Sequence record: PX880100.1
From: a phage
Strand: one strand, 5' to 3'
DNA: 64,000 nucleotides
Position numbers and translations under genes: made by a program. The notes under the pieces were generated by a model. It had not been told where the DNA came from. It worked only from the letters and a program-made list of their open reading frames with translations, and searched no databases. Shown piece by piece: positions 22,364 to 32,939 of this stretch (its first letter is position 1; each line of letters opens with the position of its first letter).

Positions 22364-22387
22364 TACCCGCATGTAACATCTGAAGTA

Positions 22388-22421
22388 AGCCCTGCGTTTC
22401 CTGGAGAGCGCAGGGCTTTTC
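22388..22421 (+). terminator. Rho-independent terminator
   Basis: AAGCCCTGCG...CGCAGGGCTT hairpin then TTTT. Confidence 0.6.
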
Positions 22422-22459
22422 TATATAATGTAATTATAAAACTAACTAGGAGATTAAAC

Positions 22460-22978
22460 ATGGGTGTTGATGAATTAACACAGCATCTTCTATCTAGAGG
22501 ATTTGATGCAGATAAATATCATTGCTGGTTAAGTCCGGAAGGATGGCTAACAGTCCCGTTGTATGATTTCTCTGGGATGTTGAGGGGCTATCAAACTTAT
22601 AATCCTTCTGCTCCAAAAGGTCATGGTAAGTATCCCTTTGAAGCTAAATATTTTACCTATTCTACTACCCAGTGTGTATGGGGATTAGAAACTCTCAATG
22701 GAGATGAAAAAGTAGTATTGATCGCTGAATCTGTATTTAAGGCAGTTGCGTTACATAACGCTGGTTATCCAGCCCTAGCAATGTTGGGTTCTTCTCCAGG
22801 AAAAGCGTTATTAAAGCAACTGAAATTATTACCTTTTAAATTGGTAGCTGTCGGGGATAACGATCCTGCGGGTGAAAAATTTGCTAGAAAATTAAACGGC
22901 TTTGTTTCTCCTGTAGATGTGGATGAGATGTCTACCGAAAACTTGAAAAATTTTCTTGCTATGAAGCTAAATTTCTAA
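22460..22978 (+). CDS. hypothetical protein, possible Toprim-like fold
   Basis: IAES and GDNDPAG acidic motifs resemble Toprim. Confidence 0.4.
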   Translation: MGVDELTQHLLSRGFDADKYHCWLSPEGWLTVPLYDFSGMLRGYQTYNPSAPKGHGKYPFEAKYFTYSTTQCVWGLETLNGDEKVVLIAESVFKAVALHNAGYPALAMLGSSPGKALLKQLKLLPFKLVAVGDNDPAGEKFARKLNGFVSPVDVDEMSTENLKNFLAMKLNF

Positions 22979-22999
22979 TATAATATATCTTATAAATTC

Positions 23000-23088
23000 G
23001 GAAGAATAGCATAACGGTATTGCAGCAGATTGCTAATCTGTCGGTTTGAAATATAGCCTTGTGGGTTCGATTCCCACTTCTTCCGCCA
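23000..23088 (+). tRNA. tRNA-Ser (anticodon GCU), long variable arm
   Basis: Perfect acceptor stem; T-arm GTGGG-TTCGATT-CCCAC; encoded CCA. Confidence 0.7.
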
Positions 23089-23094
23089 AATTCT

Positions 23095-23172
23095 GGTTCT
23101 CAAGCTCATATGGTATGAGCACCCAGCTCATAACTGGAAGGTACGTAGGTTCGAATCCTCGGGGAGCCACCA
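23095..23172 (+). tRNA. tRNA with CAU anticodon (Met/fMet/Ile2)
   Basis: Acceptor GGTTCTC/GGGAGCC; anticodon loop CTCATAA; weak T-stem. Confidence 0.5.
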
Positions 23173-23390
23173 ACTTAATTAGGGGATTACAAGTGGAATT
23201 ATACATAGTTTATGTTGTGTTTATTCAAGATAGAGAATACCCTGATGAATATAAAAAAGGATATAGGTTAGCCAGAGCTACCTCTGAAGTCCAAGCTATG
23301 GATAAAGTGGCAGATTATATGATTACGGTAGAAAACGTACACTATATCGACTACCTTGAGGCCTCAAAAGTAATTGACTAAGGAGACTAT

Positions 23391-23576
23391 ATGTCCAAGT
23401 TTCAAGAACTCAAGCAAGAGCTAGAAGAATGTGCCTGCCCTGAGTGTAGGGGAATTGGTGAAAGTTCTGATGCAGAAGCAGGAGATACTTTTTGCAATAT
23501 CTGGGTTTGCCCAAATTGCAATGGTACAGGTATTAATCCTAACTGTGGTATTTCTCTAGATATTGAAAGAGGGTAA
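23391..23576 (+). CDS. small zinc-ribbon protein
   Basis: CPECRG...CPNCNG paired CxxC. Confidence 0.45.
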   Translation: MSKFQELKQELEECACPECRGIGESSDAEAGDTFCNIWVCPNCNGTGINPNCGISLDIERG

Positions 23577-23677
23577 TATCTGTGAAACTAAAAGATTATT
23601 ATATTGGTTGGTTTGTGGGACTAGTAGTAGGATTTTCACTAGGCTATAATATGTATCAACTAATAAACTGATTACAC

Positions 23678-23754
23678 GGGGGTGTAATCGAATTGGCATA
23701 GGTACTGGACTTAAAATTCAGGTTTTGTGGGTTCGAATCCCACCACCCCTACCA
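23678..23754 (+). tRNA. tRNA, anticodon UAA (Leu-type) with short variable arm
   Basis: Acceptor GGGGGTG/CACCCCT; T-arm GTGGG-TTCGAAT-CCCAC; loop CTTAAAA. Confidence 0.5.
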
Positions 23755-23769
23755 AATTAAGGAAATAAG

Positions 23770-23937
23770 ATGTATAGACCTCCACCTCCGCCAACACGTC
23801 GTTCTAGAGAAGTTATCCTCATGGAATTGACTAAAAACTTCAAGGCAACTCTTGAAGATAGAGATTTAGGCACGGATGAAGACATTGATTTTATTTGTAG
23901 ACTATTAAAGATGAAACTGGAGAAACAACATGGCTAA
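23770..23937 (+). CDS. hypothetical small proline-rich protein (55 aa)
   Basis: Hand-translated; AAGGAAA upstream; stop overlaps next ATG. Confidence 0.4.
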   Translation: MYRPPPPPTRRSREVILMELTKNFKATLEDRDLGTDEDIDFICRLLKMKLEKQHG

Positions 23938-24136
23938 TCCTGAAATTACCGCACAACGTTTCATGCTTAAAGGCATGATTGCTGAAGCAGGTATGACTCA
24001 AGAGGTTGCAGACTTTCATAAGCAAATTCTTGATATTATAACTCTAGCTAAAGAGACTGGAGAAAAAGAGCACGCAGCAGCAATTATGGCTATATCTCTT
24101 ATTAGTCTAGACTTGGCTGAAGAATCTGGAGTTTAG
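23930..24136 (+). CDS. hypothetical protein
   Basis: ORF track. Confidence 0.4.
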   Translation: MANPEITAQRFMLKGMIAEAGMTQEVADFHKQILDIITLAKETGEKEHAAAIMAISLISLDLAEESGV

Positions 24137-24226
24137 CTCCTCCAAATAGAATTTTTAAAAATGTACTTGCCTTTTGCTTTAAATTTCTGATATAATAGTT
24201 ATATAAATTGATGAAGGAGTTAACTA

Positions 24227-24502
24227 ATGCAAAATCGTGTTATAGCAACTGGTATTGAAAGTGCAATCTGTAAATCCTGGGAAGGCTGGGAAGGTGAGAT
24301 TGAATGGCTTTATTTCTATGATGTAGAACTTCTGCCGGAAGTTAAAGCTAAATGTGTTGAAGCTGGAATGGCTCCAGATGCAAAAGCTGATATTGATATT
24401 TCAATGTCTGAACTTAAAGGCCGTGTAATTACTGTTAGTGATGAGGGTGAAGAAGTTTTCGAACTTCCATTCTCCTTAACTGTCACTCCTAAGTTCGACT
24501 AA
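24227..24502 (+). CDS. hypothetical protein
   Basis: ORF track; promoter cassette and AAGGAG upstream. Confidence 0.45.
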   Translation: MQNRVIATGIESAICKSWEGWEGEIEWLYFYDVELLPEVKAKCVEAGMAPDAKADIDISMSELKGRVITVSDEGEEVFELPFSLTVTPKFD

Positions 24503-24584
24503 CTAATACAGCACTGAGCAAGTTCTTTAAAATTTGACTTGCTCAGTGCCTTAAAACTTGGTATAATAGTTATCTAATTTGGAA

Positions 24585-24634
24585 ACATATTTAAAAGTGT
24601 TTAAACTAGTATTTGAATACTTTTAAATATGTTG
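24585..24634. repeat. perfect palindrome, 15-bp arms (AACATATTTAAAAGT / ACTTTTAAATATGTT)
   Basis: Read directly; between promoter and tRNA-Tyr. Confidence 0.8.
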
Positions 24635-24735
24635 GATTAGTATCGTAGAGGTAGCGAAGCAGACTGTAAATCTGCCGACTCGGAAGGGTCTCGGGTGGTT
24701 CGACTCCATCATCCATCATCCATCATCCAACACCA
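24631..24735 (+). tRNA. tRNA-Tyr (anticodon GUA) with 14-nt heptamer expansion before the 3' acceptor strand
   Basis: Anticodon stem GCAGA/TCTGC; T-arm GGTGG-TTCGACT-CCATC; ATCCATC x2 inserted before ATCCAAC-A-CCA. Confidence 0.5.
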
Positions 24736-24742
24736 AATTTAA

Positions 24743-24819
24743 GTCCTGTTAGACAAACTGGTAAAGTCACTACCCTTTCAAGGTAGGATTTGCGGGTTCG
24801 ATCCCCGCACAGGACGCCA
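24743..24819 (+). tRNA. tRNA-Glu (anticodon UUC)
   Basis: Perfect acceptor and anticodon stems; T-arm GCGGG-TTCGATC-CCCGC; CCA. Confidence 0.7.
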
Positions 24820-24827
24820 ATTTCTGC

Positions 24828-24904
24828 ATTCCTAGAGTGTTACTGGACAGCATGTCGGTCTCCAAAATCGTACGGTCTAGGTTCGAGTCCTAGTAGGTTT
24901 GCCA
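24828..24904 (+). tRNA. tRNA-Trp (anticodon CCA)
   Basis: T-arm CTAGG-TTCGAGT-CCTAG; loop CTCCAAA; acceptor has two U-U mismatches. Confidence 0.5.
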
Positions 24905-24910
24905 AAATTT

Positions 24911-24985
24911 GCACCTTTAGCTGAGATGGATTAGCGCTTGCCTGAAGAGCTTGAGAGGTTCGTTCGATACGAACAGGGTGCACCA
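24911..24985 (+). tRNA. tRNA-Phe (anticodon GAA)
   Basis: Acceptor GCACCTT/AGGGTGC; T-arm GTTCG-TTCGATA-CGAAC; anticodon stem imperfect. Confidence 0.5.
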
Positions 24986-25002
24986 AATTGAGGGGGCTGC
25001 TG

Positions 25003-25275
25003 ATGCATCCTGAAAACTTCTTTATTTACTGCGCTGATAAGTCGCTGAAACGTAGAATTAACAAAGTCTATCATTATCGTGCTAGTCAACAGCCTTATGT
25101 ATATGCTTTTGACGGTGATCACATTCCATTAGAACAATTATCTTGTGATTACATGATATTGAAGAACTTTGACGAGACAAAGATCTCAAGCGTTCATAAT
25201 CGACAGAATCCCTTAACGTGGAAATATAAGAAGAAAAAGAAAGGCATCAAATTCTTAAAAAATGTAGTTGCTTAG
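25003..25275 (+). CDS. hypothetical protein
   Basis: Track ORF trimmed to first ATG after GAGGGGG, clear of tRNA-Phe. Confidence 0.4.
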   Translation: MHPENFFIYCADKSLKRRINKVYHYRASQQPYVYAFDGDHIPLEQLSCDYMILKNFDETKISSVHNRQNPLTWKYKKKKKGIKFLKNVVA

Positions 25276-25307
25276 TTTCCAAAAGTTCTGTATAATAATT
25301 ACATAAA

Positions 25308-25550
25308 TTGAACTGGAGAAGCAACATGACAGAACAAGAATTGAATGAACGTAAGCTGGTAATGCTCCGCTTACTAAACATTTTCTCTGGTATGGATGGG
25401 GGTATTGACTTTGTTCATCTACGTTCTTTTGTAGAAGAAGCAGAAGGTGAATCTATCACTAAAATCCTTAAACATATGGGTTTACTATTAGATGCTGCTG
25501 GTGTAGCAACGGAATATAACCTCGAAGATCTACCGGAGCGTATTAAATGA
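25308..25550 (+). CDS. hypothetical protein
   Basis: ORF track; promoter cassette and GGAGAAG upstream. Confidence 0.45.
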   Translation: MNWRSNMTEQELNERKLVMLRLLNIFSGMDGGIDFVHLRSFVEEAEGESITKILKHMGLLLDAAGVATEYNLEDLPERIK

Positions 25551-25735
25551 AGAAGCCAAAAGCTAAATTAGTTAAGTTCGACTGTTGTGACACAGAAATC
25601 TTATTCACTAAGTTTGGTGAATTTAAGATGTGTGAATGTGGAACATGTGGTTATGATCATGGTGATGGATATTATTGCAGGACTCTTGGACCAGCAAATC
25701 TAATCCACTTTTCATGGCCGGAAGATAAAGAATAA
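25547..25735 (+). CDS. small Cys-rich protein
   Basis: CC..., CECGTCGYDHGDGYYC; overlapping start. Confidence 0.4.
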   Translation: MKKPKAKLVKFDCCDTEILFTKFGEFKMCECGTCGYDHGDGYYCRTLGPANLIHFSWPEDKE

Positions 25736-25737
25736 TT

Positions 25738-25812
25738 GCATCCTTGTCCGAGTGGCTTAGGTGACGGTCTGCAAAATCGTCTAGGTTGGTTCAATTCCAG
25801 CAGGGTGCTCCA
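25738..25812 (+). tRNA. tRNA-Cys (anticodon GCA)
   Basis: Acceptor GCATCCT/AGGGTGC; loop CTGCAAA; T-arm GTTGG-TTCAATT-CCAGC; weak D-stem. Confidence 0.55.
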
Positions 25813-25818
25813 AATTCA

Positions 25819-25901
25819 GGGTCGTTAGCCAAGCGGTTTGGCGGTGGACTGTTAATCCATGTCGAAAGACAACGTAGGTTCGAATCCTACACGGCCCGCC
25901 A
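25819..25901 (+). tRNA. tRNA, anticodon GUU (Asn-type) with 13-nt variable arm
   Basis: Good D-stem and anticodon stem; T-arm GTAGG-TTCGAAT-CCTAC; CCA. Confidence 0.55.
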
Positions 25902-26003
25902 AATTCTGTGTAGAGTTAAGTAAACCGGTAGCCAACCAGCTATCATTGCTGACATCGAATTCAGCCACAGATACCATTTTCATTAATAACTGAGGAAACA
26001 AGC

Positions 26004-26189
26004 ATGTCCAAGAATGTAATTGCGCAGCTAGAAGTTCATCGTGATAGCACTATCAACAATATTGAAGTTGAGAAGAAATACATCGAAGAACTTAAACATG
26101 ATATACTAGTAAGTCTCAACCGTCTTAATGTACGAAAAGAGTTTCTTAAAGAACTTAATGCAGCTATTGAAAAACTCAAAGCTGAGTAA
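26004..26189 (+). CDS. hypothetical protein
   Basis: ORF track; GAGGAAA upstream. Confidence 0.4.
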   Translation: MSKNVIAQLEVHRDSTINNIEVEKKYIEELKHDILVSLNRLNVRKEFLKELNAAIEKLKAE

Positions 26190-26198
26190 ATGAATTAT

Positions 26199-26275
26199 GC
26201 GACCGGGGCTGGCTTGGTAATGGTACTCCCCTGTCACGGGAGGGAATGTGGGTTCAAATCCCATCGGTCGCGCCA
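26199..26275 (+). tRNA. tRNA-Asp (anticodon GUC)
   Basis: Perfect acceptor and anticodon stems; T-loop TTCAAAT; CCA. Confidence 0.7.
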
Positions 26276-26292
26276 AATAAGGTAGGTTAGCT

Positions 26293-26451
26293 ATGGAACG
26301 TAGAGAGTTTACTCCAGAAGAGATAGAGCAGATAAAAGAATCTGCTACGAAAAATGCTAGAATATCTCTGTCACTAGAAGGTATCATTATTAGTGATGTA
26401 AACTTTGAAAAAATCAAAGCCATAGCTGATGAACTGGAAAAAGTAATTTAA
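26293..26451 (+). CDS. hypothetical small protein (52 aa)
   Basis: Hand-translated between tRNA-Asp and tRNA-Lys. Confidence 0.35.
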   Translation: MERREFTPEEIEQIKESATKNARISLSLEGIIISDVNFEKIKAIADELEKVI

Positions 26452-26452
26452 T

Positions 26453-26528
26453 ACATCCATAGCTCAATGGTTAGAGCTACCGCCTCTTAAGCGGAGGGTT
26501 CTAGGTTCAAGTCCTAGTGGGTGTACCA
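26453..26528 (+). tRNA. tRNA-Lys (anticodon CUU)
   Basis: Canonical D-arm TAGCTCAATGGTTAGAGC; T-arm CTAGG-TTCAAGT-CCTAG; CCA. Confidence 0.7.
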
Positions 26529-26554
26529 AACTAAACTAGCACGAGAAATATACT

Positions 26555-26902
26555 ATGCGTAATGCTAAAGAAGAGTTGTTACTTGCCTTAAAAAATACTA
26601 ATTCTGAAGTTAAGTGTATTAAAATAGAATTCGGGTATTATGGGGACAAAAAAGTTTGGGTATTACCTCTGGGGTATACAGAAGAAGATATTGGGGATTT
26701 TCTTAATAACCTAGACTTTGAGTATGATTCTGGTTATGGTGGACAACTACTTTATGGTAATGTATGGTTTGCCGATGGAACCTGGCTAGAACGTGGGGAA
26801 TATGATGGAGCTGAGTGGTGGGAATACAAGGCTACTCCAGCAATTCCAGAGGAATGCCGAACAATTAATGGTGAAGTAGATAATACTTTAAGGTTAAACT
26901 AA
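26555..26902 (+). CDS. hypothetical protein
   Basis: ORF track. Confidence 0.45.
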   Translation: MRNAKEELLLALKNTNSEVKCIKIEFGYYGDKKVWVLPLGYTEEDIGDFLNNLDFEYDSGYGGQLLYGNVWFADGTWLERGEYDGAEWWEYKATPAIPEECRTINGEVDNTLRLN

Positions 26903-27295
26903 TAAAATTTCAGTGCAGAACACGGAGCTAGCAATTCGGAAGTGCTGACTCATGATAAGCTGCCTATGTACTTGCAAAGCGGTCGTGTCCAAGACTCGGA
27001 CTCTTGCACTGAAAACAATCAAACATTCTAGCGTGGTTGATGGGGAAACCAGCTTGGCTAGGGCAGAAGCTCGTTCGATTCGAGTGAAAGAATGGTTCTC
27101 GTAAGTCCGCACAAGTGATAATAGGTTCGAGTCCTGTCTAGAATGACACTATAAAGTTTACTTATTATGTAGGTTCCGATAGATCGGCGGGTCTATTCTG
27201 GCATTTAAGAGAGGTCTCGCAAACTTCTTTGTCAGCCGTGGGGTTGGTAGCCTCCAGGTGGCCTACACAATAAGTAAATTTATTAAAAATTCATT

Positions 27296-27324
27296 TGCTA
27301 TTTCTCTTAATTATCTGTATAATA
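27296..27324 (+). promoter_or_regulatory. N25-like early promoter driving tRNA-Pro/tRNA-CAU
   Basis: TTGCTA-17 bp-TATAAT; followed by SD plus ATG with only 3 codons, then tRNAs. Confidence 0.6.
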
Positions 27325-27518
27325 TATTTTATAAAGTGAAGAGAAGGAAAGCAAAATGAAACACAAGATAGCTCAAGTTTTTATGGCATTATGGTGTATG
27401 CCAATAGCTATAACAGCATTTAATCTAGATACTTTTACTATAGAAGAAAAATGTATCGGATTAGTTAGTGGCTTTAGTATGCTTGGCTTATCTTTGTTGT
27501 GGTTGAAGAAATAATATT

Positions 27519-27596
27519 CTCCGTGTAGCTCAGTTTGGCCAGAGCGTTTCGTTTGGGGCGATAGGGTCGGGGGTTCAAATCCTCCCACGGAGACCA
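27519..27596 (+). tRNA. tRNA-Pro (anticodon UGG)
   Basis: Acceptor CTCCGTG/CACGGAG; D-arm GCTC...GAGC; T-loop TTCAAAT; CCA. Confidence 0.6.
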
Positions 27597-27602
27597 AACA
27601 AT

Positions 27603-27680
27603 TGCGGGTTAGATCTCTGGTAGAGATCGCTAGTCTCATAAGCTAGAAAGAGGTAGGTTCGATTCCTGCACCCGCTTCCA
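27603..27680 (+). tRNA. tRNA with CAU anticodon (Met/fMet/Ile2)
   Basis: D-stem GATC/GATC; anticodon stem CTAGT/GCTAG; T-loop TTCGATT; CCA. Confidence 0.6.
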
Positions 27681-27700
27681 TTTTAATAGAGGATTTCGAA

Positions 27701-27868
27701 ATGAAAGTATTTCGATTAGTAGTAAGTGACAAACGCTTAGGTAAGAATACATCAAAATCCTTACTTGCTCATTATGGTAGAAATTGGGATGAAGTAATGG
27801 CAGAGTTTAGTACTAATCACTCTTACTTGAAAGTTCACTCTATTAAAGAAGTATACAATGGTTACTAA
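27701..27868 (+). CDS. hypothetical small protein (55 aa)
   Basis: Hand-translated; SD-like upstream; ends 2 nt before tRNA-Lys. Confidence 0.4.
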   Translation: MKVFRLVVSDKRLGKNTSKSLLAHYGRNWDEVMAEFSTNHSYLKVHSIKEVYNGY

Positions 27869-27869
27869 T

Positions 27870-27948
27870 AGATCGCTAGCTCAATAGGTTTAGTAGCATC
27901 CGACTTTTAATCGGAAGGTTCTGGGTTCAAGTCCCAGGCGATCTACCA
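27870..27948 (+). tRNA. tRNA-Lys (anticodon UUU)
   Basis: Perfect acceptor AGATCGC/GCGATCT; anticodon stem TCCGA/TCGGA; T-loop TTCAAGT; CCA. Confidence 0.7.
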
Positions 27949-27952
27949 ATTT

Positions 27953-28026
27953 GCTCGGTTAGTTTAATGGGAGAACCCCGTCTTTACATGGCGGTTGAGA
28001 TAGTTCGATTCTATCACCGGGTACCA
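27953..28026 (+). tRNA. tRNA-Val (anticodon UAC)
   Basis: T-arm GATAG-TTCGATT-CTATC; anticodon stem CCGTC/GGCGG; CCA. Confidence 0.65.
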
Positions 28027-28045
28027 ATTAACTCAAAATAAGGAA

Positions 28046-28405
28046 TTGCAAATGCAATTATCAAGCAAGATTCAAGGTTATTTCGGTCATGTGACAATGG
28101 AGTTCGCTATCTCTAAAGGTTGGGACTTCGAACAAGATTTAGCTGAGTTCTACAAAGATATTGATCTGAACGTACCGTACATGGGACTTTCTACTGGTCA
28201 GGAGATCACAGAAGCCGATGTATTCAAGGCAAGTCAAGGTGAGGTAACACCTAGTTTTGCCGAGTTCTGGTTAGGCATTACGTTAAAAGAAGATGCACCA
28301 GATAGTGGTGTACTAATGTCTAGTATGCACTCTGGAAGTTCCGATTACCTTTTCATTAGCGATGTTAAGGAAATACAAGAAGTCTGCAAAAATGTACTTG
28401 CTTGA
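28046..28405 (+). CDS. hypothetical protein
   Basis: ORF track; AAGGAAT upstream. Confidence 0.45.
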   Translation: MQMQLSSKIQGYFGHVTMEFAISKGWDFEQDLAEFYKDIDLNVPYMGLSTGQEITEADVFKASQGEVTPSFAEFWLGITLKEDAPDSGVLMSSMHSGSSDYLFISDVKEIQEVCKNVLA

Positions 28406-28664
28406 TGCTTAATTTCTTGTTATAATATTTATATAAATTGATGAGGAGAAATCCTCATCATAGTTCACTAAGGTATTAGCTCGACCTAGGACTGGCTGCC
28501 AAAAAGCACGATCCCTACGATTCGGGAGAAGTTCTAGATTGGTCCACTAGATTCAGCGGCAACTGAATAGTGTATTGGGTTTGCGAGATGACGTAGTTCC
28601 TTCCGCTCTAAGCGAAGGTGCTGTAGTTACGCCGAGCTAATAGCCTTAGTAAACTAAAGAATTT

Positions 28665-28743
28665 GGGGAATGGGTCTGCATGGAGTGGACACCTCGCTTG
28701 CACCGAGGACATCAGAACGGTTCGATTCCGTTATTCTCCACCA
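28665..28743 (+). tRNA. tRNA-Ala (anticodon UGC)
   Basis: Anticodon stem CCTCG/CGAGG; T-arm AACGG-TTCGATT-CCGTT; CCA. Confidence 0.65.
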
Positions 28744-28748
28744 AATAC

Positions 28749-28825
28749 GCGTGATTGATGGAATTGGCATACATACCGTCCTTAGAAGTCGGGTTTTGAG
28801 GGTTCGAATCCCTTGTCACGCACCA
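28749..28825 (+). tRNA. tRNA, anticodon UAG (Leu-type) with short variable arm
   Basis: Perfect acceptor GCGTGAT/GTCACGC; T-loop TTCGAAT; loop CTTAGAA. Confidence 0.5.
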
Positions 28826-28937
28826 AATTTGATGGTCAGAGTAAATTAAACCTACTATCTCGGTTGAGCTGTTTTAATGGGTTCGAATCCCAGCGAGGCG
28901 TAACTGCCTGGTGTGATAGAGGCATCATCTTATTATT

Positions 28938-29028
28938 GGAAGAGCAAATCGAATTGGCGACGAAAACCGCTTGGAAAGTGGCTGACTGGTAAAACGGCTT
29001 GAGAGTTCAAATCTCTCCTCTTCCGCCA
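28938..29028 (+). tRNA. tRNA-Ser (anticodon GGA), class II
   Basis: Perfect acceptor GGAAGAG/CTCTTCC; T-arm GAGAG-TTCAAAT-CTCTC; long variable arm; CCA. Confidence 0.6.
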
Positions 29029-29040
29029 AACAATTTATAT

Positions 29041-29135
29041 GGTAGGTCAATCCAATGGCTGGCGTGGGACTCCGACTTGAAATCGGTTGATCGTAGTGAT
29101 ACGGTGTAAGGGTTCGATCCCCTTACCTACCTCCA
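29041..29135 (+). tRNA. tRNA-Ser (anticodon UGA), class II
   Basis: Perfect acceptor GGTAGGT/ACCTACC; T-arm AAGGG-TTCGATC-CCCTT; 20-nt variable arm; CCA. Confidence 0.6.
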
Positions 29136-29501
29136 AATCTTGAAGTATGCCGGAATCGGTAGACGGGGCTGCCTAAAAGGTTTATAGGGAACATCCACTC
29201 CCTGCAACATACCCCATAAAGCGGCTGAGATAAATGGTCTATCTCGTGAAGGTTCAAGTCCTTCTGCTTCTTGATACATCAATGGCTCAAAGTGTAACGG
29301 CGCTATTTGATGCGCTTAGTAAGACTTCCCCGACATGCGTTCGGGAGTAAGCTGCTAAGGCTAGAGTAGAAGAGTTTCTGAGAGCCGCCACAATTGAAGA
29401 TTCGTACTCGTCTTGAGCTGCGTGCAATAGGAGATAACTTGATTAGTATTCTAGAACATGCTAATTGAGGAAGGTTTCGCTAACCCTGCGAGTTTTCAAT
29501 T

Positions 29502-29578
29502 GTGGCTATATCATAATTGGTTAATGATCCTGATTGTGAATCAGGCCTATGTGGATTCGAATTCCACTAGCCACCCCA
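29502..29578 (+). tRNA. tRNA-His (anticodon GUG)
   Basis: Perfect acceptor and anticodon stems; T-arm GTGGA-TTCGAAT-TCCAC; CCA. Confidence 0.7.
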
Positions 29579-29603
29579 AATTAACTTAAATAGGAAATAA
29601 AAT

Positions 29604-29798
29604 ATGGCTGATTTCTGCAAACAATGCTCCATTGATATGTGGGGCAGAGATACTGGTGATCTTTCTGGTTTGATTACAGAAGCTGAAGTTAAAGAAGGCT
29701 ACGGTGCTGTTGTGATTTGCGAGGGATGCGGAGTTATTCGAGTAGATCATGAAGGCAAACGTTTGGAAGAATCTGAGCCAACAACAATTTTTCCGTAG
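29604..29798 (+). CDS. small zinc-ribbon protein
   Basis: CKQC...CEGC; AGGAAAT upstream. Confidence 0.45.
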   Translation: MADFCKQCSIDMWGRDTGDLSGLITEAEVKEGYGAVVICEGCGVIRVDHEGKRLEESEPTTIFP

Positions 29799-29810
29799 AA
29801 TAAAAATTAT

Positions 29811-29886
29811 TGGGATGTAGATCAATTGGCAGATCGTCGGCCTCTGACTCCGAAGGCTCCACGTTCGATCCGTGGCATCCCAGCCA
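29811..29886 (+). tRNA. tRNA-Gln (anticodon CUG)
   Basis: Perfect acceptor TGGGATG/CATCCCA; D-stem GATC/GATC; T-arm CCACG-TTCGATC-CGTGG; CCA. Confidence 0.65.
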
Positions 29887-29892
29887 AATAAT

Positions 29893-29968
29893 TGGAGAGT
29901 AGTGTAACGGTTAGCACAACGGCCTTTGACTCCGTTAATGGTAGGTTCGATTCCTCCTTCTCCAGCCA
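29893..29968 (+). tRNA. tRNA-Gln (anticodon UUG)
   Basis: Paralogous anticodon arm to previous tRNA; T-loop TTCGATT; CCA. Confidence 0.6.
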
Positions 29969-29976
29969 AATAATAA

Positions 29977-30052
29977 GCGGTTAAGCACACGGGTTGTGTC
30001 GCAGGCCTTCCAAGCCTCGCTGAGTAGGGTTCGATTCCCTCTAGCCGCTCCA
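29977..30052 (+). tRNA. tRNA-Gly (anticodon UCC)
   Basis: Acceptor GCGGTTA/TAGCCGC; loop CTTCCAA; T-loop TTCGATT; CCA. Confidence 0.55.
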
Positions 30053-30068
30053 ACTTTAAGGGGACATT

Positions 30069-30290
30069 ATGCACGTTTTTGAGTTTCGTAATAAAAGTAC
30101 CGATAAACGAGTTATTGTTATCGGGGAAACATACCGAGCATACGAACAAACTGACGGCTCTGTTATCCTGAATGACGAAAAAGGAGGTTTTAGCTTTTAT
30201 CCCAAAGAAACTTACGAAGAATTTCGTACAAAGTTTCTTCTACCAGACTGGCTAGAAGTAGCGCAGCAACGAGAACCCGAAGATGGCTGA
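30069..30290 (+). CDS. hypothetical protein
   Basis: ORF track; SD-like AAGGGGA upstream. Confidence 0.45.
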   Translation: MHVFEFRNKSTDKRVIVIGETYRAYEQTDGSVILNDEKGGFSFYPKETYEEFRTKFLLPDWLEVAQQREPEDG

Positions 30291-30447
30291 TAACCTAAAA
30301 GTCAAGATCGATAAACAAAAGAAACGTGTCGAAGTAGAGATTGGTGAAGAACGTGTAGCCTTCACCTTTGAATTTCTACAACAAATGGCAATGACAGTTA
30401 TGACTGATAAGTCTCCTGTTATTGAAAAAGAAATCCCGTTGAAATAA
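30283..30447 (+). CDS. hypothetical small protein (54 aa)
   Basis: Hand-translated; ATG overlaps upstream stop (ATGGCTGA). Confidence 0.35.
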   Translation: MADNLKVKIDKQKKRVEVEIGEERVAFTFEFLQQMAMTVMTDKSPVIEKEIPLK

Positions 30448-30456
30448 CGGGCTATC

Positions 30457-30531
30457 GCTCCTAAAGCATTGTTGGCGATGCAGTTGCCTTGTAAGCATCT
30501 GAACCGGGTTCGATTCCTGGTGGGAGCACCA
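30457..30531 (+). tRNA. tRNA-Thr (anticodon UGU)
   Basis: D-stem GCAT/ATGC; T-arm CCGGG-TTCGATT-CCTGG; CCA. Confidence 0.6.
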
Positions 30532-30546
30532 AATTTAAAAATTCAT

Positions 30547-30575
30547 TTGCTTTCTCTCTTATTTCTTGTTATAAT
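30547..30575 (+). promoter_or_regulatory. N25-like early promoter
   Basis: TTGCTT-17 bp-TATAAT, then ATAAATTAATGAGAGGG. Confidence 0.65.
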
Positions 30576-30605
30576 ATTTATATAAATTAATGAGAGGGAA
30601 GCCAA

Positions 30606-30899
30606 ATGAAACGTTATCTTTCTGTTGTGTTCCAAACTGGTGGTCAGCGCTATACTTACGAATTTCCTGGCTCTTGGAAAGTCAAAGAAGGTGATCAAGT
30701 AGTTGTATTAACACCGCGTGACGGGTATAAGGTAGTAACGGTTAAGCAAGTATTTTCAAAAGACTATGAACCGTCTAAGTCTATTAACTATAAGATGATT
30801 CATGGTGTAGTTCGTCAAGTACCACGAGCGGAAGTCGAAATCAAAGTAGATAAAGATGATAAACTTAAATATACCTCTTGCATAGACGAGTTGCTATAA
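30606..30899 (+). CDS. hypothetical protein
   Basis: ORF track; promoter and SD upstream. Confidence 0.5.
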   Translation: MKRYLSVVFQTGGQRYTYEFPGSWKVKEGDQVVVLTPRDGYKVVTVKQVFSKDYEPSKSINYKMIHGVVRQVPRAEVEIKVDKDDKLKYTSCIDELL

Positions 30900-31105
30900 T
30901 GAGGATTACTTTTACAGAAAAGATTATGAGTAATGGTGTTATGATCATTACCGCATGGGACAGTAATCAGTGGTGTAGTGTTTCAGGTATTAAGCCTGAA
31001 GAACAAACACTAGAAAATATCTCAAAGATTAAGCGAAGAATGGCAGAACGTGCACGACTTCCAGGTGCACCTAGAAATGGCAAACGTTCTGCTGTGAAAT
31101 GTTAA
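30878..31105 (+). CDS. hypothetical protein
   Basis: ORF track; start uncertain. Confidence 0.35.
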   Translation: MHRRVAIMRITFTEKIMSNGVMIITAWDSNQWCSVSGIKPEEQTLENISKIKRRMAERARLPGAPRNGKRSAVKC

Positions 31106-31106
31106 T

Positions 31107-31183
31107 GCTTCGGTAGCTTAGCGATCTAAAGCACTCGGCTGATAACCGAGAGATCGGGGGTTTAAATCCCTCCCGGAGTACCA
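31107..31183 (+). tRNA. tRNA-Ile (anticodon GAU)
   Basis: Perfect anticodon stem CTCGG/CCGAG; T-loop TTTAAAT; CCA. Confidence 0.6.
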
Positions 31184-31279
31184 AATTTAGGAATTAAGAC
31201 TATGCGTCCAGGAAAGTTTAGAAAAGCTAATTGGTCTAAAGAGTATAAAGAATACTTACTTAGTCTAGTAAAACATAAC

Positions 31280-31355
31280 AGTTAGTTGGCAGAGTGGTTA
31301 TGCACCTCCTTCATACGGAGCGACTACAGTGGTTCAAATCCACTACTAACTACCA
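31280..31355 (+). tRNA. tRNA with CAU anticodon (Met/fMet/Ile2)
   Basis: Perfect acceptor AGTTAGT/ACTAACT; T-arm AGTGG-TTCAAAT-CCACT; CCA. Confidence 0.6.
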
Positions 31356-31392
31356 TTAAAACAGCTAGAGATAGCTAAATATAGGAGCAATT

Positions 31393-31587
31393 ATGTTAAC
31401 AGTTAAAATAATGTCCACTGATGGTGGTGAGCAGATTCATGTTGGTAAAAGCGTAGGGTTTAACCCCAGAAATAAAAGCATAGCTATTTCTGGAATAGAT
31501 CAAGCAATCTTCTTAAAAGAAGATGAAGTAGCATACGTTATGAACCAAACCGGTAAGACAGTTTCTGTATATCGTGGTAAACTATAG
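31393..31587 (+). CDS. hypothetical protein
   Basis: ORF track; AGGAGCAA upstream. Confidence 0.45.
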   Translation: MLTVKIMSTDGGEQIHVGKSVGFNPRNKSIAISGIDQAIFLKEDEVAYVMNQTGKTVSVYRGKL

Positions 31588-31629
31588 AGAATAAAGAGCT
31601 GAGCCAATTTCTAACATCAGGGAGATCTA

Positions 31630-31998
31630 ATGAAAGCATATCAAAATCTTAAATCTGGAGTAATCAACCTCGTTCATGAAAATCAGATCATTCAACTATA
31701 CTCCGATAACGGTGAACTTAAACAGAAAGTTCTAGTTGAAGACCTAGAAGGTATCACACCACAATTCGATCCCGAAGCCTTCCGTGAGGTCAAAGTGGAA
31801 GTCGCCCCTCAAATCGAAGGTGGTCAACACCTAAACGTCAATGTGTTAAGCCGTGATCAGCTTTTGGATGCGCAGAAACATCCTGAAAAATACCCTCAAT
31901 TAACTATCCGTGTTTCAGGGTACGCTGTACGTTTTAACGCACTGACGCGTGAACAACAGAACGACGTTATTAGTCGTACATTTACTCAGGCGATGTAA
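31630..31998 (+). CDS. grcA: autonomous glycyl radical cofactor (GrcA/YfiD-like)
   Basis: C-terminus [10 protein letters not shown]...[20 protein letters not shown] matches the glycyl-radical domain signature RVSGY. Confidence 0.75.
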
Positions 31999-32079
31999 TG
32001 GGGTTTGGATACGGTTTCTCCGAACTACGCAAGGTAGTCGAGCAAACTCCATTTATCTCTCAAGTTTTAGGAGAAATGT

Positions 32080-32394
32080 GTGGATCGAGCATTAAGACGT
32101 CATCACCGCCAACGTGTGAAGAACAACCGCAAGAAGTATTGGACAGTCTTTCCACATGAAGAAAGCCCTAAGCGGTTAGGTATTATCACTACTACTCCTT
32201 GCATCTGTTCTTGTTGGATGTGTGGGGACCCTCGCAAATACTATAAGAATAGTAAAGCAGGCATGAAAATTTCGGAGATTAGAAAAATGGAAGCAATGAT
32301 TATGGGCATCTCAAATGATGAATTTGATGGCTTTGTAGGATTCGGAGAAGGAATTAGCTCAGGCTGTTTCGAAGATGAACGCCCCGATCTGTAA
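32080..32394 (+). CDS. hypothetical basic Cys-rich protein
   Basis: ORF track; terminator immediately downstream. Confidence 0.4.
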   Translation: MDRALRRHHRQRVKNNRKKYWTVFPHEESPKRLGIITTTPCICSCWMCGDPRKYYKNSKAGMKISEIRKMEAMIMGISNDEFDGFVGFGEGISSGCFEDERPDL

Positions 32395-32403
32395 TTAATA
32401 ACA

Positions 32404-32440
32404 AACCCCAGCTATTGAATAAGTAGTCTGGGGTTTTTCT
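32404..32440 (+). terminator. Rho-independent terminator
   Basis: AACCCCAG...CTGGGGTT hairpin then TTTTT. Confidence 0.6.
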
Positions 32441-32515
32441 GTATACAGGTAAATAATCTATGTATAATAAAATTCATCCACATTAGGTTAATTTAAAAGA
32501 CTTAATGGAGGTAAT

Positions 32516-32863: not shown

Positions 32864-32939
32864 ATTCTGAAATAATTCATTTGCTAAACCTCTCTTTTCT
32901 TGCTATAATATATTTATAAATTGATGAGAGAGGTTTGAA

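What the first reader, a model, noticed from the sequence alone, without database searches (positions are those of the whole stretch)
25904..29500. Several further tRNA-like or structured elements I could not resolve into canonical tRNAs
Unresolved stretches: 25904-25976 (5-bp stem with 8-nt TΨC-like loop then A-CCA; one alternative fold exposes a UCA triplet); 26903-27290 (about 390 bp ORF-free with two T-arm-like hairpins); 28450-28660 (starts with a hairpin right after a promoter); 28842-28905 (clean T-arm, no CCA); 29141-29500 (T-arm at 29248-29264, several hairpins). These may be pseudo-tRNAs, tRNA-derived regulatory RNAs, or genuine tRNAs with non-canonical pairs that hand folding missed.
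Basis: seen in the sequence. Interest (0 to 1): 0.5.

Follow-up and report, generated by a model that had tools for sequence, protein, structure and literature searches.

The report
Known T5-type small stable RNA genes
The unresolved stretches are the genes for the small "stable" and tRNA-like RNAs that T5-like phages carry between their tRNA genes. They have been catalogued for decades but still have no known function, and one of them proves to belong to a widespread phage RNA family built on a tRNA scaffold.

Summary
The window is a T5-like coliphage, 99.4% identical to AKFV33 over this region. All but one map at 85-100% identity onto RNA genes already annotated in the BF23 tRNA-region record AJ604530:
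- RNA3: 25904-25976
- RNA2: 27024-27147
- RNAIV: 27167-27269
- RNA 2H: 28474-28645
- RNA1: 29139-29283
- RNAI: 29284-29390
- RNAIII: 29395-29500

The depositors describe all of these as of unknown function. The 28842-28905 T arm lies in an unannotated 112-nt spacer that looks like a tRNA remnant.

None is a decoding tRNA. RNA1 and RNA2 are full tRNA bodies whose anticodon loop is replaced by a 48-61 nt structured insert, and RNA3 is a D-stem-less tRNA mimic ending in ACCA. Comparative analysis supports the folds: 13 of 36 pairs in RNA1 and 25 of 31 in RNA2 show compensatory changes.

The new result is that RNA2 belongs to a family absent from Rfam. It occurs in tRNA arrays of unrelated phages and is essentially absent from bacterial genomes.

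The most likely mode of action is co-transcription with tRNAs, excision by tRNA-processing enzymes, and non-decoding action in trans. That function is inferred, not shown.

The parts
25904..25976 (+). RNA3: a 73-nt tRNA-like RNA. It has a 6-bp acceptor stem plus U1.U72, no D stem, a 6-bp anticodon-like stem with a 6-nt loop, a T arm with an 8-nt loop, and an A-CCA end. It starts 2 nt after the CCA of tRNA-Asn.
   Evidence: 98.6% identical to BF23 rna3, annotated 'tRNA-like RNA with unknown functions'. In the tested fold 98.4% of cells are paired and 3 pairs changed on both sides, against 0 in the slid controls. MFE z = -3.0.
26909..27017 (+). Structured spacer upstream of RNA2, not annotated in any record examined, closed by a 10-12 bp helix (UUUCAGUGCA/UGCACUGAAA).
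   Evidence: It is present only in the subset of T5-like phages whose match covers the whole query. It varies too little to test covariation, and its MFE z is -1.1.
27024..27147 (+). RNA2: a tRNA body (acceptor, D arm, 5-bp anticodon stem, T arm at 27121-27137, no CCA). The anticodon loop is replaced by a 61-nt insert that carries a second T-arm-like hairpin (27070-27084) and the conserved GGGY, AAUGG and CGUAAnUCCGCA segments.
   Evidence: 96.8% identical to BF23 rna2. Scores 149.7 bits against covariance model R1. Family covariation: 23 of 31 and 25 of 31 pairs changed on both sides.
27167..27269 (+). RNAIV: a 103-nt multi-branched RNA with a closing helix and three hairpins. The loops UCGGCGGG and CUCGCAA stay the same while their stems covary. 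It ends about 25 nt before the next promoter.
   Evidence: 96% identical to BF23 rnaIV, annotated 'stable RNA with unknown functions'. The consensus fold (RNAalifold) has 36 pairs, 10 with compensatory changes. MFE z = -2.0.
27295..27324 (+). T5-type early promoter (TTGCTA-17-TATAAT) that ends the RNA2/RNAIV unit and drives tRNA-Pro, tRNA-Met and following genes.
   Evidence: Promoter scan and the AKFV33 regulatory feature.
28398..28427 (+). T5-type early promoter, at the position of promoter P13b in the BF23 record, driving the hairpin, RNA 2H, tRNA-Ala and tRNA-Leu.
   Evidence: AKFV33 regulatory feature and BF23 promoter P13b.
28439..28460 (+). Hairpin at the 5' end of the transcript (9-bp stem, 4-nt loop).
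28474..28645 (+). RNA 2H: a 172-nt RNA closed by a 10-bp helix, with 3-4 internal hairpins. Two of these hairpins are swapped for different or longer modules in Epseptimavirus-type relatives. It ends 19 nt before tRNA-Ala.
   Evidence: 96.5% identical to BF23 rna2H, annotated 'stable RNA with unknown functions'. Alignment. The consensus fold (RNAalifold) has 49 pairs, 9 with compensatory changes.
28826..28937 (+). Unannotated 112-nt spacer between tRNA-Leu(UAG) and tRNA-Ser(GGA). It holds a T arm (28878-28892) flanked by a 4-bp acceptor-like pairing (CUCG/CGAG). It is probably a tRNA remnant or minihelix.
   Evidence: 100% identical to BF23 3769-3880, which is unannotated. T5 has an HNH endonuclease gene at this site. 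Only 8 near-identical variants were found; two substitutions in L036 keep the CUCG/CGAG pairing through wobble pairs. MFE z = -1.0.
28938..29028 (+). tRNA-Ser(GGA), a class II tRNA with a weak anticodon stem. It is a real gene in BF23, is flagged 'pseudo' in one T5 record, and is missed by ARAGORN.
   Evidence: 100% identical to BF23 tRNAS2. Rfam gives only 19.7 bits, to the tRNA-Sec model. Fold.
29139..29283 (+). RNA1: a class II tRNA body (core 29141-29271). It has a Leu-like D arm, a 6-bp variable arm, a T arm at 29248-29264, a 6-bp acceptor stem plus U.U, and no CCA. The anticodon arm is extended by two further helices ending in the invariant loop AACAUCCACU (29190-29199). A small trailer hairpin follows.
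   Evidence: 85.5% identical to BF23 rna1, annotated 'tRNA-like RNA with unknown functions'. Across 28 distinct homologues 95.2% of cells are paired and 13 of 36 pairs changed on both sides, against 1-4 in the slid controls.
29284..29390 (+). RNAI: a 107-nt RNA with a 5-bp terminal helix (GGCUC/GAGCC) followed by G-CCA, and conserved GUAACGG and GAAGAGUUUCU segments.
   Evidence: 89.7% identical to BF23 rnaI, annotated 'stable RNA'. The Sugarland homologue has GGCCC/GGGCC plus ACCA. The consensus fold has 31 pairs, 4 with compensatory changes.
29395..29500 (+). RNAIII: a 106-nt RNA closed by a 12-bp helix, abutting the 5' end of tRNA-His.
   Evidence: 98% identical to BF23 rnaIII, annotated 'stable RNA'. 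MFE z = -2.5. It is almost invariant, so covariation cannot be tested.

Best explanation
These stretches are the genes of the small stable RNAs of T5-like phages: three tRNA-like RNAs (RNA1, RNA2, RNA3) and four other structured RNAs (RNAI, RNAIII, RNAIV, RNA 2H). One tRNA-remnant-like spacer lies among them.

Shown:
- They lie on the tRNA strand, inside the early tRNA operons, and abut tRNAs to within 0-20 nt.
- Each is closed by a helix joining its 5' and 3' ends.
- RNA1 and RNA2 are complete tRNA bodies in which a conserved structured 'payload' replaces the anticodon loop, so they cannot decode.
- RNA3 and RNAI end in NCCA.

Inferred:
- They are transcribed together with the tRNAs by host RNA polymerase.
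- They are cut out by the host tRNA-processing enzymes (RNase P at the 5' side of tRNA-like ends, RNase E and 3' exonucleases) and accumulate because tRNA-like or closed ends protect them. This is the principle of the engineered 'tRNA scaffold'.

My commitment on function:
- They act in trans as non-decoding RNAs.
- The tRNA-shaped ones present their conserved loops or a tRNA-like surface to a tRNA-recognising host or phage factor. The most plausible role is as mimics or decoys in the conflict over host tRNAs and translation.
- They are accessory genes, not essential ones.

Estimated likelihoods: identity about 0.95, biogenesis about 0.7, trans-acting non-decoding function about 0.5, and the decoy or mimic role specifically about 0.3.
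For: Identity:
- The region is 99.4% identical to AKFV33.
- Element-by-element matches to the BF23 misc_RNA features are 85-100% identical.
- The same features are annotated in DT571/2.

Not tRNAs:
- ARAGORN and Rfam give no call on any of them.

Selected structure:
- RNA1: 13 of 36 pairs with compensatory changes and 95.2% of cells paired, against 40-50% in slid controls.
- RNA2 family: 23 of 31 and 25 of 31 pairs.
- RNA3: 3 pairs.
- RNAIV: 10 of 36 pairs.
- RNA 2H: 9 of 49 pairs, with module swaps that keep the helices.

Payload conserved more than scaffold:
- The RNA1 terminal loop AACAUCCACU is invariant in all but one of 28 distinct homologues, including Klebsiella and other genera, while its stem covaries.
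- In the RNA2 family, acceptor identity is 0.29 and anticodon-stem identity 0.41. The GGGU.G segment, which the search pattern did not require, has 0.67 identity.

Scaffold logic:
- Replacing a tRNA anticodon stem-loop with a structured RNA gives chimeras that E. coli processes and protects (PMC3401473).
- Ordinary tRNAs align end to end to the RNA2 model with the insert deleted, scoring 15-32 bits.

Accessory nature:
- DT571/2 lacks RNA1, RNA2 and RNAIV.
- The viable T5 mutants del(29191-32442) and del(30661-38625) appear to remove most of these genes. I inferred this from mapped coordinates.

Phage-specific distribution of RNA2:
- It sits on the tRNA strand of tRNA arrays in 10 loci from unrelated phages.
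- Among 185,579 bacterial and archaeal genomes only one true hit was found, on a contig with a phage-like tRNA array.
Against: - No transcript, processing-site or binding data were available. That the RNAs are stable rests only on the depositors' annotation wording. For RNA1-3 the wording is 'tRNA-like' or 'putative', so these may never have been seen as RNA.
- Folding energies are mostly no better than shuffled controls.
- No target emerged. The complement of the RNA1 loop is not enriched in the window.
- RNA1 and RNA2 lack an encoded CCA although every tRNA of the cluster has one, which could weaken RNase P processing.
- The elements are individually dispensable and often deleted. That also fits weak or purely cis roles.
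- The conservation of CGUAAnUCCGCA in the RNA2 family is partly built into the search pattern (ascertainment).
Confidence: 0.6

Rival explanations
1. The elements act only in cis. On this view they are self-folding spacers. They keep neighbouring tRNA precursors from mispairing, set RNase P and RNase E entry sites, and cap transcript ends, with no function once released.
For: - Every element is closed by a helix joining its own ends and abuts a tRNA or a promoter.
- The 28439-28460 hairpin sits at a transcript 5' end.
- RNAIV and RNA2 lie at the end of an operon.
- The elements are gained and lost individually without loss of viability.
- Established E. coli tRNA operon processing depends on RNase E and RNase P sites between genes (PMC2190699, listed).
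Against: - An insulator needs only pairing, not invariant loops. Yet the RNA1 loop AACAUCCACU and its variable-arm loop, the RNAIV loops and the GGGU/AAUGG segments of RNA2 stay fixed while the stems covary.
- RNA2 is kept as a complete tRNA-shaped unit in unrelated phages with different neighbours.
- The depositors describe RNAI, RNAIII, RNAIV and RNA 2H as stable RNAs, meaning they accumulate.
Confidence: 0.2
2. They are decaying tRNA genes and recombination debris. On this view they were left by the frequent deletions and homing-endonuclease traffic in this region, are still transcribed, and have no function.
For: - The region is a known deletion hotspot (PMC12483538; PMC11464382).
- HNH endonuclease genes replace spacers in relatives.
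- The 28826-28937 spacer looks like the 3' part of a tRNA.
- RNA3 has a defective D region and an 8-nt T loop.
Against: - Compensatory substitutions maintain nearly all helices of RNA1 and RNA2.
- RNA2 persists in Demerecviridae, a T4-like Acinetobacter phage and very large uncultivated phages.
- Debris would not keep an invariant 10-nt loop across genera.
- This reading remains plausible only for the 112-nt spacer.
Confidence: 0.12
3. Some are genuine decoding tRNAs whose inserts are introns removed after transcription. An example would be RNA2-type genes as intron-containing tRNA-Pro(GGG).
For: - ARAGORN calls one divergent family member (L113) a 93-nt 'tRNA-Pro (ggg)'.
- The Rfam tRNA model scores two members at 47-51 bits with a large insertion.
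- The insert sits exactly where tRNA introns sit.
Against: - In most members the conserved GGG is 3-4 nt from the stem, not 2, and is not preceded by the usual U33.
- The inserts are 25-75 nt, far below the size of self-splicing group I introns, and Rfam finds no intron or ribozyme.
- Bacterial hosts are not known to have a tRNA splicing endonuclease (my own knowledge).
- The insert, not the tRNA body, is the conserved part.
- In RNA1 the two sides of the would-be loop vary (CU/AA, CG/AA) and form an internal loop of a continuous covarying arm.
Confidence: 0.04
4. The stretches encode small proteins, as annotated in several GenBank records.
For: 'Hypothetical protein' CDSs overlap RNA2 in phiR2-01 (g056) and in PMBT31, overlap RNA1 in Klebsiella phages, and in T5 ORF060 adjoins this region. 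ORFs of 30-72 aa exist in the window.
Against: - These ORFs are not conserved between records, and most records annotate nothing there.
- Substitutions come as paired changes on the two sides of helices.
- Length variation occurs as hairpin-module swaps.
Confidence: 0.03

Closest known systems
Stable and tRNA-like RNAs of phages T5, BF23 and DT571/2 (misc_RNA features rna1, rna2, rna3, rnaI, rnaIII, rnaIV, rna2H of GenBank AJ604530; also KM979355)
   Same: The order and strand are the same, and the sequences are 85-100% identical element by element. These are the same genes.
   Different: - The window lacks BF23's tRNA-Gly(GCC) and the 147-nt spacer between RNA2 and RNAIV.
- It also lacks ORF trn2.14 between tRNA-Ser(UGA) and RNA1.
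- RNA1 is the most diverged, at 85.5%.
- The 112-nt Leu-Ser spacer and the 26909-27017 element are annotated in none of the records examined.
Canonical tRNA (Rfam RF00005)
   Same: RNA1 and RNA2 have an acceptor stem, D arm, anticodon stem and T arm, with the usual conserved G18G19-type and GUUCRAnYC loops. Divergent RNA2-family members even pass the Rfam tRNA threshold.
   Different: - They have no 7-nt anticodon loop. A 48-61 nt structured insert takes its place.
- RNA1 and RNA2 have no CCA.
- RNA3 has no D stem and has an 8-nt T loop.
- No tRNA predictor calls the copies in the window.
Engineered tRNA-scaffold chimeras (Ponchon and Dardel approach, as described in PMC3401473)
   Same: The architecture is the same: a tRNA whose anticodon stem-loop is replaced by a structured RNA. 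In E. coli such chimeras are processed and protected like tRNAs.
   Different: Here the design is natural and phage-encoded, and the payload is the evolutionarily conserved part. Processing of the natural RNAs has not been shown.
Phage T4 species 1 and species 2 RNAs (rnaC, rnaD)
   Same: They too are small stable RNAs of unknown function at the end of a phage tRNA cluster. rnaC has a T arm next to its 3' end.
   Different: No detectable homology. The RNA2 covariance model finds only T4's tRNAs and not rnaC or rnaD. A local resemblance (UCGAUUCGAG...CGUAAG) did not hold up.
tmRNA and bacterial Y-RNA-like YrlA (RNAs that combine a tRNA-like domain with another domain)
   Same: They pair a tRNA-like module recognised by tRNA enzymes with a non-tRNA module.
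   Different: - Neither matches: ARAGORN finds no tmRNA and Rfam gives no tmRNA or YrlA hit in the region at E <= 10.
- The topology differs. In YrlA the tRNA-like part is the insert (my own knowledge).
- There is no tag reading frame.
Bacterial tRNA genes interrupted by group I introns
   Same: The insertion is in the anticodon loop of a tRNA gene.
   Different: The inserts are 25-75 nt rather than more than about 200 nt. They give no Rfam intron hit and have no anticodon context around the insertion.

Membership tests
T5/BF23 small stable and tRNA-like RNA genes (AJ604530 annotation) | Sequence homology to the annotated rna1, rna2, rna3, rnaI, rnaIII, rnaIV and rna2H features | tested here: met
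   BLAST of each BF23 feature against the window gave 85.5-98.6% identity over the full length.
T5/BF23 small stable and tRNA-like RNA genes (AJ604530 annotation) | Same position and strand relative to the flanking tRNA genes and promoters | tested here: met
   The order is Asn-RNA3..., RNA2-RNAIV-promoter, promoter-RNA 2H-Ala-Leu, and Ser-Ser-RNA1-RNAI-RNAIII-His, as in BF23.
T5/BF23 small stable and tRNA-like RNA genes (AJ604530 annotation) | Accumulation as discrete stable RNAs in infected cells | not testable with these tools
   Only the depositors' wording is available: 'stable RNA' for I, III, IV and 2H, and 'tRNA-like' or 'putative' for 1-3.
Canonical tRNA | Cloverleaf with acceptor, D, anticodon and T arms | tested here: met
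   Met for RNA1 and RNA2. Not met for RNA3, which has no D stem, or for RNAI, RNAIII, RNAIV and RNA 2H.
Canonical tRNA | 7-nt anticodon loop presenting an anticodon | tested here: not met
   - RNA1: the loop is replaced by two helices and a 10-nt loop.
- RNA2: a 61-nt insert.
- RNA3: a 6-nt loop CAACCA without U33.
- ARAGORN and Rfam make no call.
Canonical tRNA | Encoded or added 3' NCCA and aminoacylation | tested here: inconclusive
   RNA3 (ACCA) and RNAI (GCCA) encode it. RNA1 and RNA2 do not, while all cluster tRNAs do. Charging cannot be tested here.
RNA2-type tRNA-scaffolded phage RNA family (defined here, model R1) | Significant full-length match to the covariance model, well above ordinary tRNAs | tested here: met
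   The window copy scores 149.7 bits. Divergent members score 30-74 bits, and most are above the 15-32 bits of ordinary tRNAs.
RNA2-type tRNA-scaffolded phage RNA family (defined here, model R1) | Helices maintained by compensatory changes | tested here: met
   25 of 31 pairs changed on both sides. 93.4% of cells are paired, against 33-50% in slid controls. The alignment was fitted to the model, which favours the structure.
tmRNA | tRNA-Ala-like domain plus a tag reading frame | tested here: not met
   ARAGORN finds no tmRNA. Rfam gives no tmRNA match of note in 20000-32500.
YrlA (Y RNA-like, RF02553) | Match to the Rfam covariance model | tested here: not met
   No hit in the window region at E <= 10.
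T4 species 1/2 RNAs (rnaC, rnaD) | Detectable homology | tested here: not met
   Model R1 finds only tRNAs in the T4 locus L008.
Group I intron-containing tRNA | Intron with a group I core (more than about 200 nt) in the anticodon loop | tested here: not met
   The inserts are 48-61 nt and there is no Rfam intron hit.

The most novel reading that the evidence does not exclude
RNA2 is the T5 representative of a widespread, uncatalogued class of phage RNAs. The class consists of natural 'tRNA-scaffold' molecules.

In them a freely drifting tRNA body carries a conserved payload of roughly 25-75 nt in place of the anticodon loop. The payload has a GGGU/AUCC helix, usually a second T-loop hairpin with an AAUGG partner, and a CGUAA segment.

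The family lies in tRNA arrays of unrelated phages: Demerecviridae, a T4-like Acinetobacter phage, 86-570 kb uncultivated phages, and marine, soil and gut metagenomes. It is essentially absent from cellular genomes.

If it acts in trans, for example as a two-elbow tRNA mimic that titrates a tRNA-binding defence nuclease or a processing or modification enzyme, it would be a new kind of phage counter-measure RNA. It would also give the first functional handle on the 40-year-old 'stable RNAs of unknown function' of T5. RNA1 would be a second, independent example of the same design.
Probability: 0.35. Interest if true: 0.7.

Novelty: already known. Interest (0 to 1): 0.45.

Why it matters
The elements themselves are not new. 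They are annotated in BF23 and DT571/2. Recognising them prevents their being reported as novel tRNAs or mis-annotated as small proteins, as several GenBank records do.

What matters is that their function has stayed open since they were first catalogued. The comparative data here turn that into testable questions:
- RNA1 and RNA2 are natural tRNA scaffolds with conserved payloads.
- RNA2 has relatives in many unrelated phages with tRNA arrays.
- All are accessory genes in a region already linked to escape from tRNA-targeting defences such as PARIS and to triggering of the DRT9 defence system.

A trans-acting tRNA mimic would add an RNA-based layer to the phage-host conflict over tRNAs.

Tried and rejected
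1. **Homology of RNA2 to T4 species 1 RNA.** A shared UCGAUUCGAG...CGUAAG stretch looked promising. The covariance model finds only T4's tRNAs, so this was rejected.
2. **Pattern scan for RNAI.** The pattern GTAACGG-N45-75-GAAGAGTTTCT gave 42 hits in viral contigs. Apart from T5-like and Sugarland-type phages, the 26 new hits inspected were chance matches with no terminal helix or CCA. RNAI is therefore only shown for Markadamsvirinae (the T5-like subfamily) and Sugarlandvirus.
3. **Target search for the invariant RNA1 loop.** Its complement occurs in the window no more often than in shuffles.
4. **Ancestry of RNA1.** The tRNA body with the insert removed finds nothing in E. coli genomes.
Those bases lie at the edge of a covarying stem.
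6. **Reading the conserved GGG of RNA2 as an anticodon.** The spacing and the lack of U33 argue against this, despite one ARAGORN call.
7. **RNA3 homologues outside Markadamsvirinae.** None was found in the loci held.
8. **Literature searches.** No paper in the searchable library assigns a function to, or gives a modern description of, these RNAs.
9. **Folding-energy z-scores as evidence.** They are mostly not significant.
10. **Two alternative pairings in the RNA2 insert.** GGGY with RUCC, against (U/C)GG with CCG, could not be told apart from the sequences.

Full report
**What the window is.** The stretch 25700-29650 is 99.4% identical to Escherichia phage vB_EcoS_AKFV33, and 551 phage records match it, nearly all T5-like (family Demerecviridae). 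It lies inside the phage's tRNA cluster at 20.7-31.4 kb, with all genes on the + strand. ARAGORN finds 24 tRNAs in the window and Rfam adds two more.

**Checking the observation.** All the described features are present:
- 25904-25976 has a 5-bp stem with an 8-nt loop followed by A-CCA.
- 26903-27290 holds two T-arm-like hairpins, at 27070-27084 and 27121-27137.
- A 9-bp hairpin at 28439-28460 directly follows the promoter that AKFV33 annotates at 28398-27.
- A T arm lies at 28878-28892.
- A T arm lies at 29248-29264.

Two details need correcting. The 26903-27290 stretch is not strictly ORF-free, because ORFs of 50 and 72 aa are listed. The 'UCA triplet' fold is not supported (see RNA3 below).

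**What the elements are.** The BF23 tRNA-region record AJ604530 carries misc_RNA features for exactly these places. BLAST of each feature against the window gives the following map:

| BF23 feature | Depositors' description | Window coordinates | Identity |
|---|---|---|---|
| RNA3 | tRNA-like RNA with unknown functions | 25904-25976 | 98.6% |
| RNA2 | tRNA-like | 27024-27147 | 96.8% |
| RNAIV | stable RNA with unknown functions | 27167-27269 | 96.1% |
| RNA 2H | stable RNA | 28474-28645 | 96.5% |
| RNA1 | tRNA-like | 29139-29283 | 85.5% |
| RNAI | stable RNA | 29284-29390 | 89.7% |
| RNAIII | stable RNA | 29395-29500 | 98.1% |

Other points from the same comparison:
- The 28826-28937 spacer holding the 'clean T arm' is 100% identical to an unannotated BF23 spacer.
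- tRNA-Ser(GGA) at 28938-29028, which ARAGORN misses, follows it directly.
- DT571/2 annotates the same RNAs.
- The window lacks BF23's tRNA-Gly(GCC) plus 147 nt between RNA2 and RNAIV, and ORF trn2.14 before RNA1.
- T5 has an HNH endonuclease gene in place of the 112-nt spacer.

So the finding re-detects catalogued genes whose function the depositors call unknown. I found no paper in the searchable library that assigns them one.

**RNA1.** I compared twenty-eight distinct homologues from T5-, Epseptimavirus- and Sugarland-type phages and one further lineage (L073).
- They fit a class II cloverleaf. It has a 6-bp acceptor stem plus a U.U pair, a Leu-like D arm (GCCGGAAUCGGUAGACGG), a 6-bp anticodon stem, a 6-bp variable arm and a T arm.
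- Two further helices extend the anticodon stem, ending in the loop AACAUCCACU.
- In this fold 95.2% of cells are paired and 13 of 36 pairs changed on both sides, against 1-4 in the slid controls.
- The terminal loop and the variable-arm loop stay the same (one substitution in one T5-derived copy) while the stems change.
- There is no anticodon loop and no CCA.

**RNA2.** The consensus fold (RNAalifold) of T5-like, Sugarland and phiR2-01 copies gives an acceptor stem, a D-like arm, a 5-bp anticodon stem and a T arm. The anticodon stem encloses a 61-nt insert. The insert holds a GGGY/RUCC helix, a hairpin with a T-loop sequence (GUUCGAUUC), and the conserved segments AAUGG and CGUAAnUCCGCA.

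A BLAST hit in the T4-like Acinetobacter phage 133, inside its tRNA cluster, prompted a wider search. I scanned for the pattern CGTAANTCCGCAC-N6-18-GGTTYRANYCC and checked the hits with covariance model R1. True members, by model score:
- Sugarland: 112.8 bits.
- An 86-kb uncultivated phage (L058): 73.7 bits.
- Phage 133: 61.5 bits.
- Proteus phage Stubb: 55.9 bits.
- 359-kb and 570-kb contigs: 44.7 bits.
- About 16 further divergent metagenome contigs: 30-62 bits.

Ordinary tRNAs match the model end to end with the insert deleted, at 15-32 bits. This shows that the body of RNA2 is a tRNA.

Among 185,579 bacterial and archaeal genomes the pattern hit twice. One hit was chance. The other was a 167-kb contig carrying a phage-like tRNA array.

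In ten loci with enough sequence, the element lies on the tRNA strand within or beside a tRNA array. Several short contigs have no neighbouring tRNA, so that association is not universal.

Across 24 distinct members, 25 of 31 pairs changed on both sides and 93.4% of cells are paired, against 33-50% in slid controls. This alignment was fitted to the model, which favours the structure.

Among members less than 85% identical to each other, identity varies sharply by region:
- Acceptor stem: 0.29.
- Anticodon stem: 0.41.
- GGGU.G segment of the insert: 0.67.
- Inner T-loop: 0.75.

The CGUAAnUCCGCA segment was required by the pattern, so its conservation is partly built in.

One member (L113) has a minimal insert in which a GC-GAAA-GC hairpin replaces the T-loop hairpin, and AAUGG is missing too. 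This fits the idea that the two parts interact like a T loop and a D loop to form a second 'elbow'. That idea is my inference.

Rfam's tRNA model scores some divergent members as tRNAs with a large insertion, and ARAGORN calls L113 'tRNA-Pro(ggg)'. I do not read the GGG as an anticodon. Its spacing from the stem is wrong in most members, and the U that normally precedes an anticodon (position 33) is absent.

**The other elements.**
- **RNA3** fits an acceptor stem, a 6-bp stem with a 6-nt loop and a T arm with an 8-nt loop, with no D stem. In this fold 98.4% of cells are paired and 3 pairs changed on both sides, against 0 in the controls. It ends in ACCA.
- **RNAIV** is a closed multi-branch RNA with conserved loops on covarying stems. 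Its consensus fold has 36 pairs, 10 compensatory, though much of that signal comes from one divergent sequence.
- **RNA 2H** is closed by a 10-bp helix. Two of its hairpins are replaced by different or longer modules in Epseptimavirus-type phages while the helices are kept. Its consensus fold has 49 pairs, 9 compensatory.
- **RNAI** has a 5-bp terminal helix followed by GCCA. The Sugarland homologue has the compensating helix GGCCC/GGGCC followed by ACCA.
- **RNAIII**, the 112-nt spacer and a further unannotated element at 26909-27017 (10-12 bp closing helix) vary too little to test.

Folding-energy z-scores range from -0.6 to -3.0. Only RNA3 and RNAIII are clearly better than shuffles. The case for structure is therefore comparative.

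**How they most likely work.**

Shown:
- The elements lie on the same strand as the tRNAs and inside promoter-defined tRNA operons.
- They are within 0-20 nt of tRNA ends.
- Each is closed by a helix of its own ends.
- RNA1 and RNA2 are tRNA bodies with payloads, and RNA3 and RNAI end in NCCA.

Inferred from established knowledge of E. coli tRNA operon processing (RNase E, RNase P and 3' exonucleases; PMC2190699): they are excised with the tRNAs and persist because their ends are tRNA-like or closed.

Engineered RNAs of the same design, with a structured RNA in place of a tRNA anticodon stem-loop, are processed and protected in E. coli (PMC3401473). That makes this route credible for RNA1 and RNA2.

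The function is not known. The pattern of conserved loops on freely covarying scaffolds argues for sequence-specific action in trans.

The genes are also dispensable. DT571/2 lacks RNA1, RNA2 and RNAIV. The viable T5 deletion mutants appear to remove most of the set, which I inferred from mapped coordinates. Dispensability points to an accessory role.

The same region supplies the tRNA that defeats the PARIS defence system and is a deletion hotspot that matters for another defence system, DRT9. My best guess is therefore tRNA mimicry or decoy action toward a tRNA-recognising factor, at about 0.3.

The main rivals are purely cis-acting insulator or processing elements (0.2) and non-functional debris (0.12, plausible mainly for the 112-nt spacer). 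Intron-containing decoding tRNAs and small proteins are unlikely.

**Comparison with known families.** The elements are members of the T5/BF23 stable-RNA set by sequence and by position.
- They are not canonical tRNAs, because the anticodon loop test fails.
- They are not tmRNA or YrlA, because Rfam and ARAGORN give no match.
- They are not group I intron-bearing tRNAs.
- They are not detectably related to T4 species 1 or 2 RNAs, although they resemble those in being unexplained stable RNAs at a phage tRNA cluster.

RNA1 and RNA2 work like tRNA-scaffold chimeras.

**Verdict.** As a finding it is already known.

The added value is fourfold:
- An exact map of the elements in the window.
- Comparative support for the folds.
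- The recognition that RNA1 and RNA2 are natural tRNA scaffolds.
- The discovery that RNA2 has relatives across unrelated phages and is not in Rfam.

Whether that family has been described elsewhere I could not establish.

Noticed in passing
window 29977-30052: tRNA-Gly(UCC), 100% identical to BF23 tRNAG1, is missed by ARAGORN. In Rfam it appears only as a sub-threshold tRNA-Sec match of 30.9 bits.
   Followed up: partly
window 23095-23169: A tRNA found by Rfam (38.2 bits) but not by ARAGORN. It sits where BF23 annotates tRNA-Ile2 (anticodon CAU).
   Followed up: no
window 20523-21306: This is the counterpart (97.6% identical) of BF23 'RNAX', a 784-nt 'stable RNA with unknown functions' upstream of tRNA-Arg. 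It contains a tRNA-like segment at 20733-20804 (Rfam 35.5 bits), which one T5 record flags as a pseudo-tRNA.
   Followed up: no
window 25819-25901: tRNA-Asn is 83 nt long, with a small hairpin (GUCGAAAGAC) in the variable region. That is unusual for an Asn tRNA.
   Followed up: no
window 26909-27017: A further structured spacer with a 10-12 bp closing helix lies just upstream of RNA2. None of the records examined annotates it, and it is present only in a subset of T5-like phages.
   Followed up: partly
L005 8986-9132; L051 6072-6212; L003 4573-4746; Klebsiella phage records: Several GenBank records place 'hypothetical protein' CDSs over or directly beside RNA2, RNA1 and neighbouring RNA genes. 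Given the compensatory base changes, the overlapping ones are probably mis-annotations.
   Followed up: partly
window 27147-27167 and 29135-29139, compared with L004: The window differs from BF23 by clean absences of tRNA-Gly(GCC) plus 147 nt and of ORF trn2.14. T5 carries an HNH endonuclease gene in place of the 112-nt Leu-Ser spacer. Identity to AKFV33 and to TUMS_E3 also alternates from element to element, so the region is mosaic.
   Followed up: partly
L053 12400-12474; L106 7053-7127: Uncultivated phage contigs that carry RNA2-like genes also carry tRNAs with a CUA anticodon (amber-suppressor type, labelled 'Pyl' by ARAGORN). In L106 this tRNA lies directly next to the RNA2-like gene. L053 packs 36 tRNAs into 13 kb.
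   Followed up: no
L006 2457-2605 (Klebsiella phage Sugarland): Between the RNAI homologue and tRNA-His, Sugarland has a different sequence closed by a helix of about 16 bp, in the position that RNAIII occupies in T5-like phages. This may be a structural analogue without sequence similarity.
   Followed up: no
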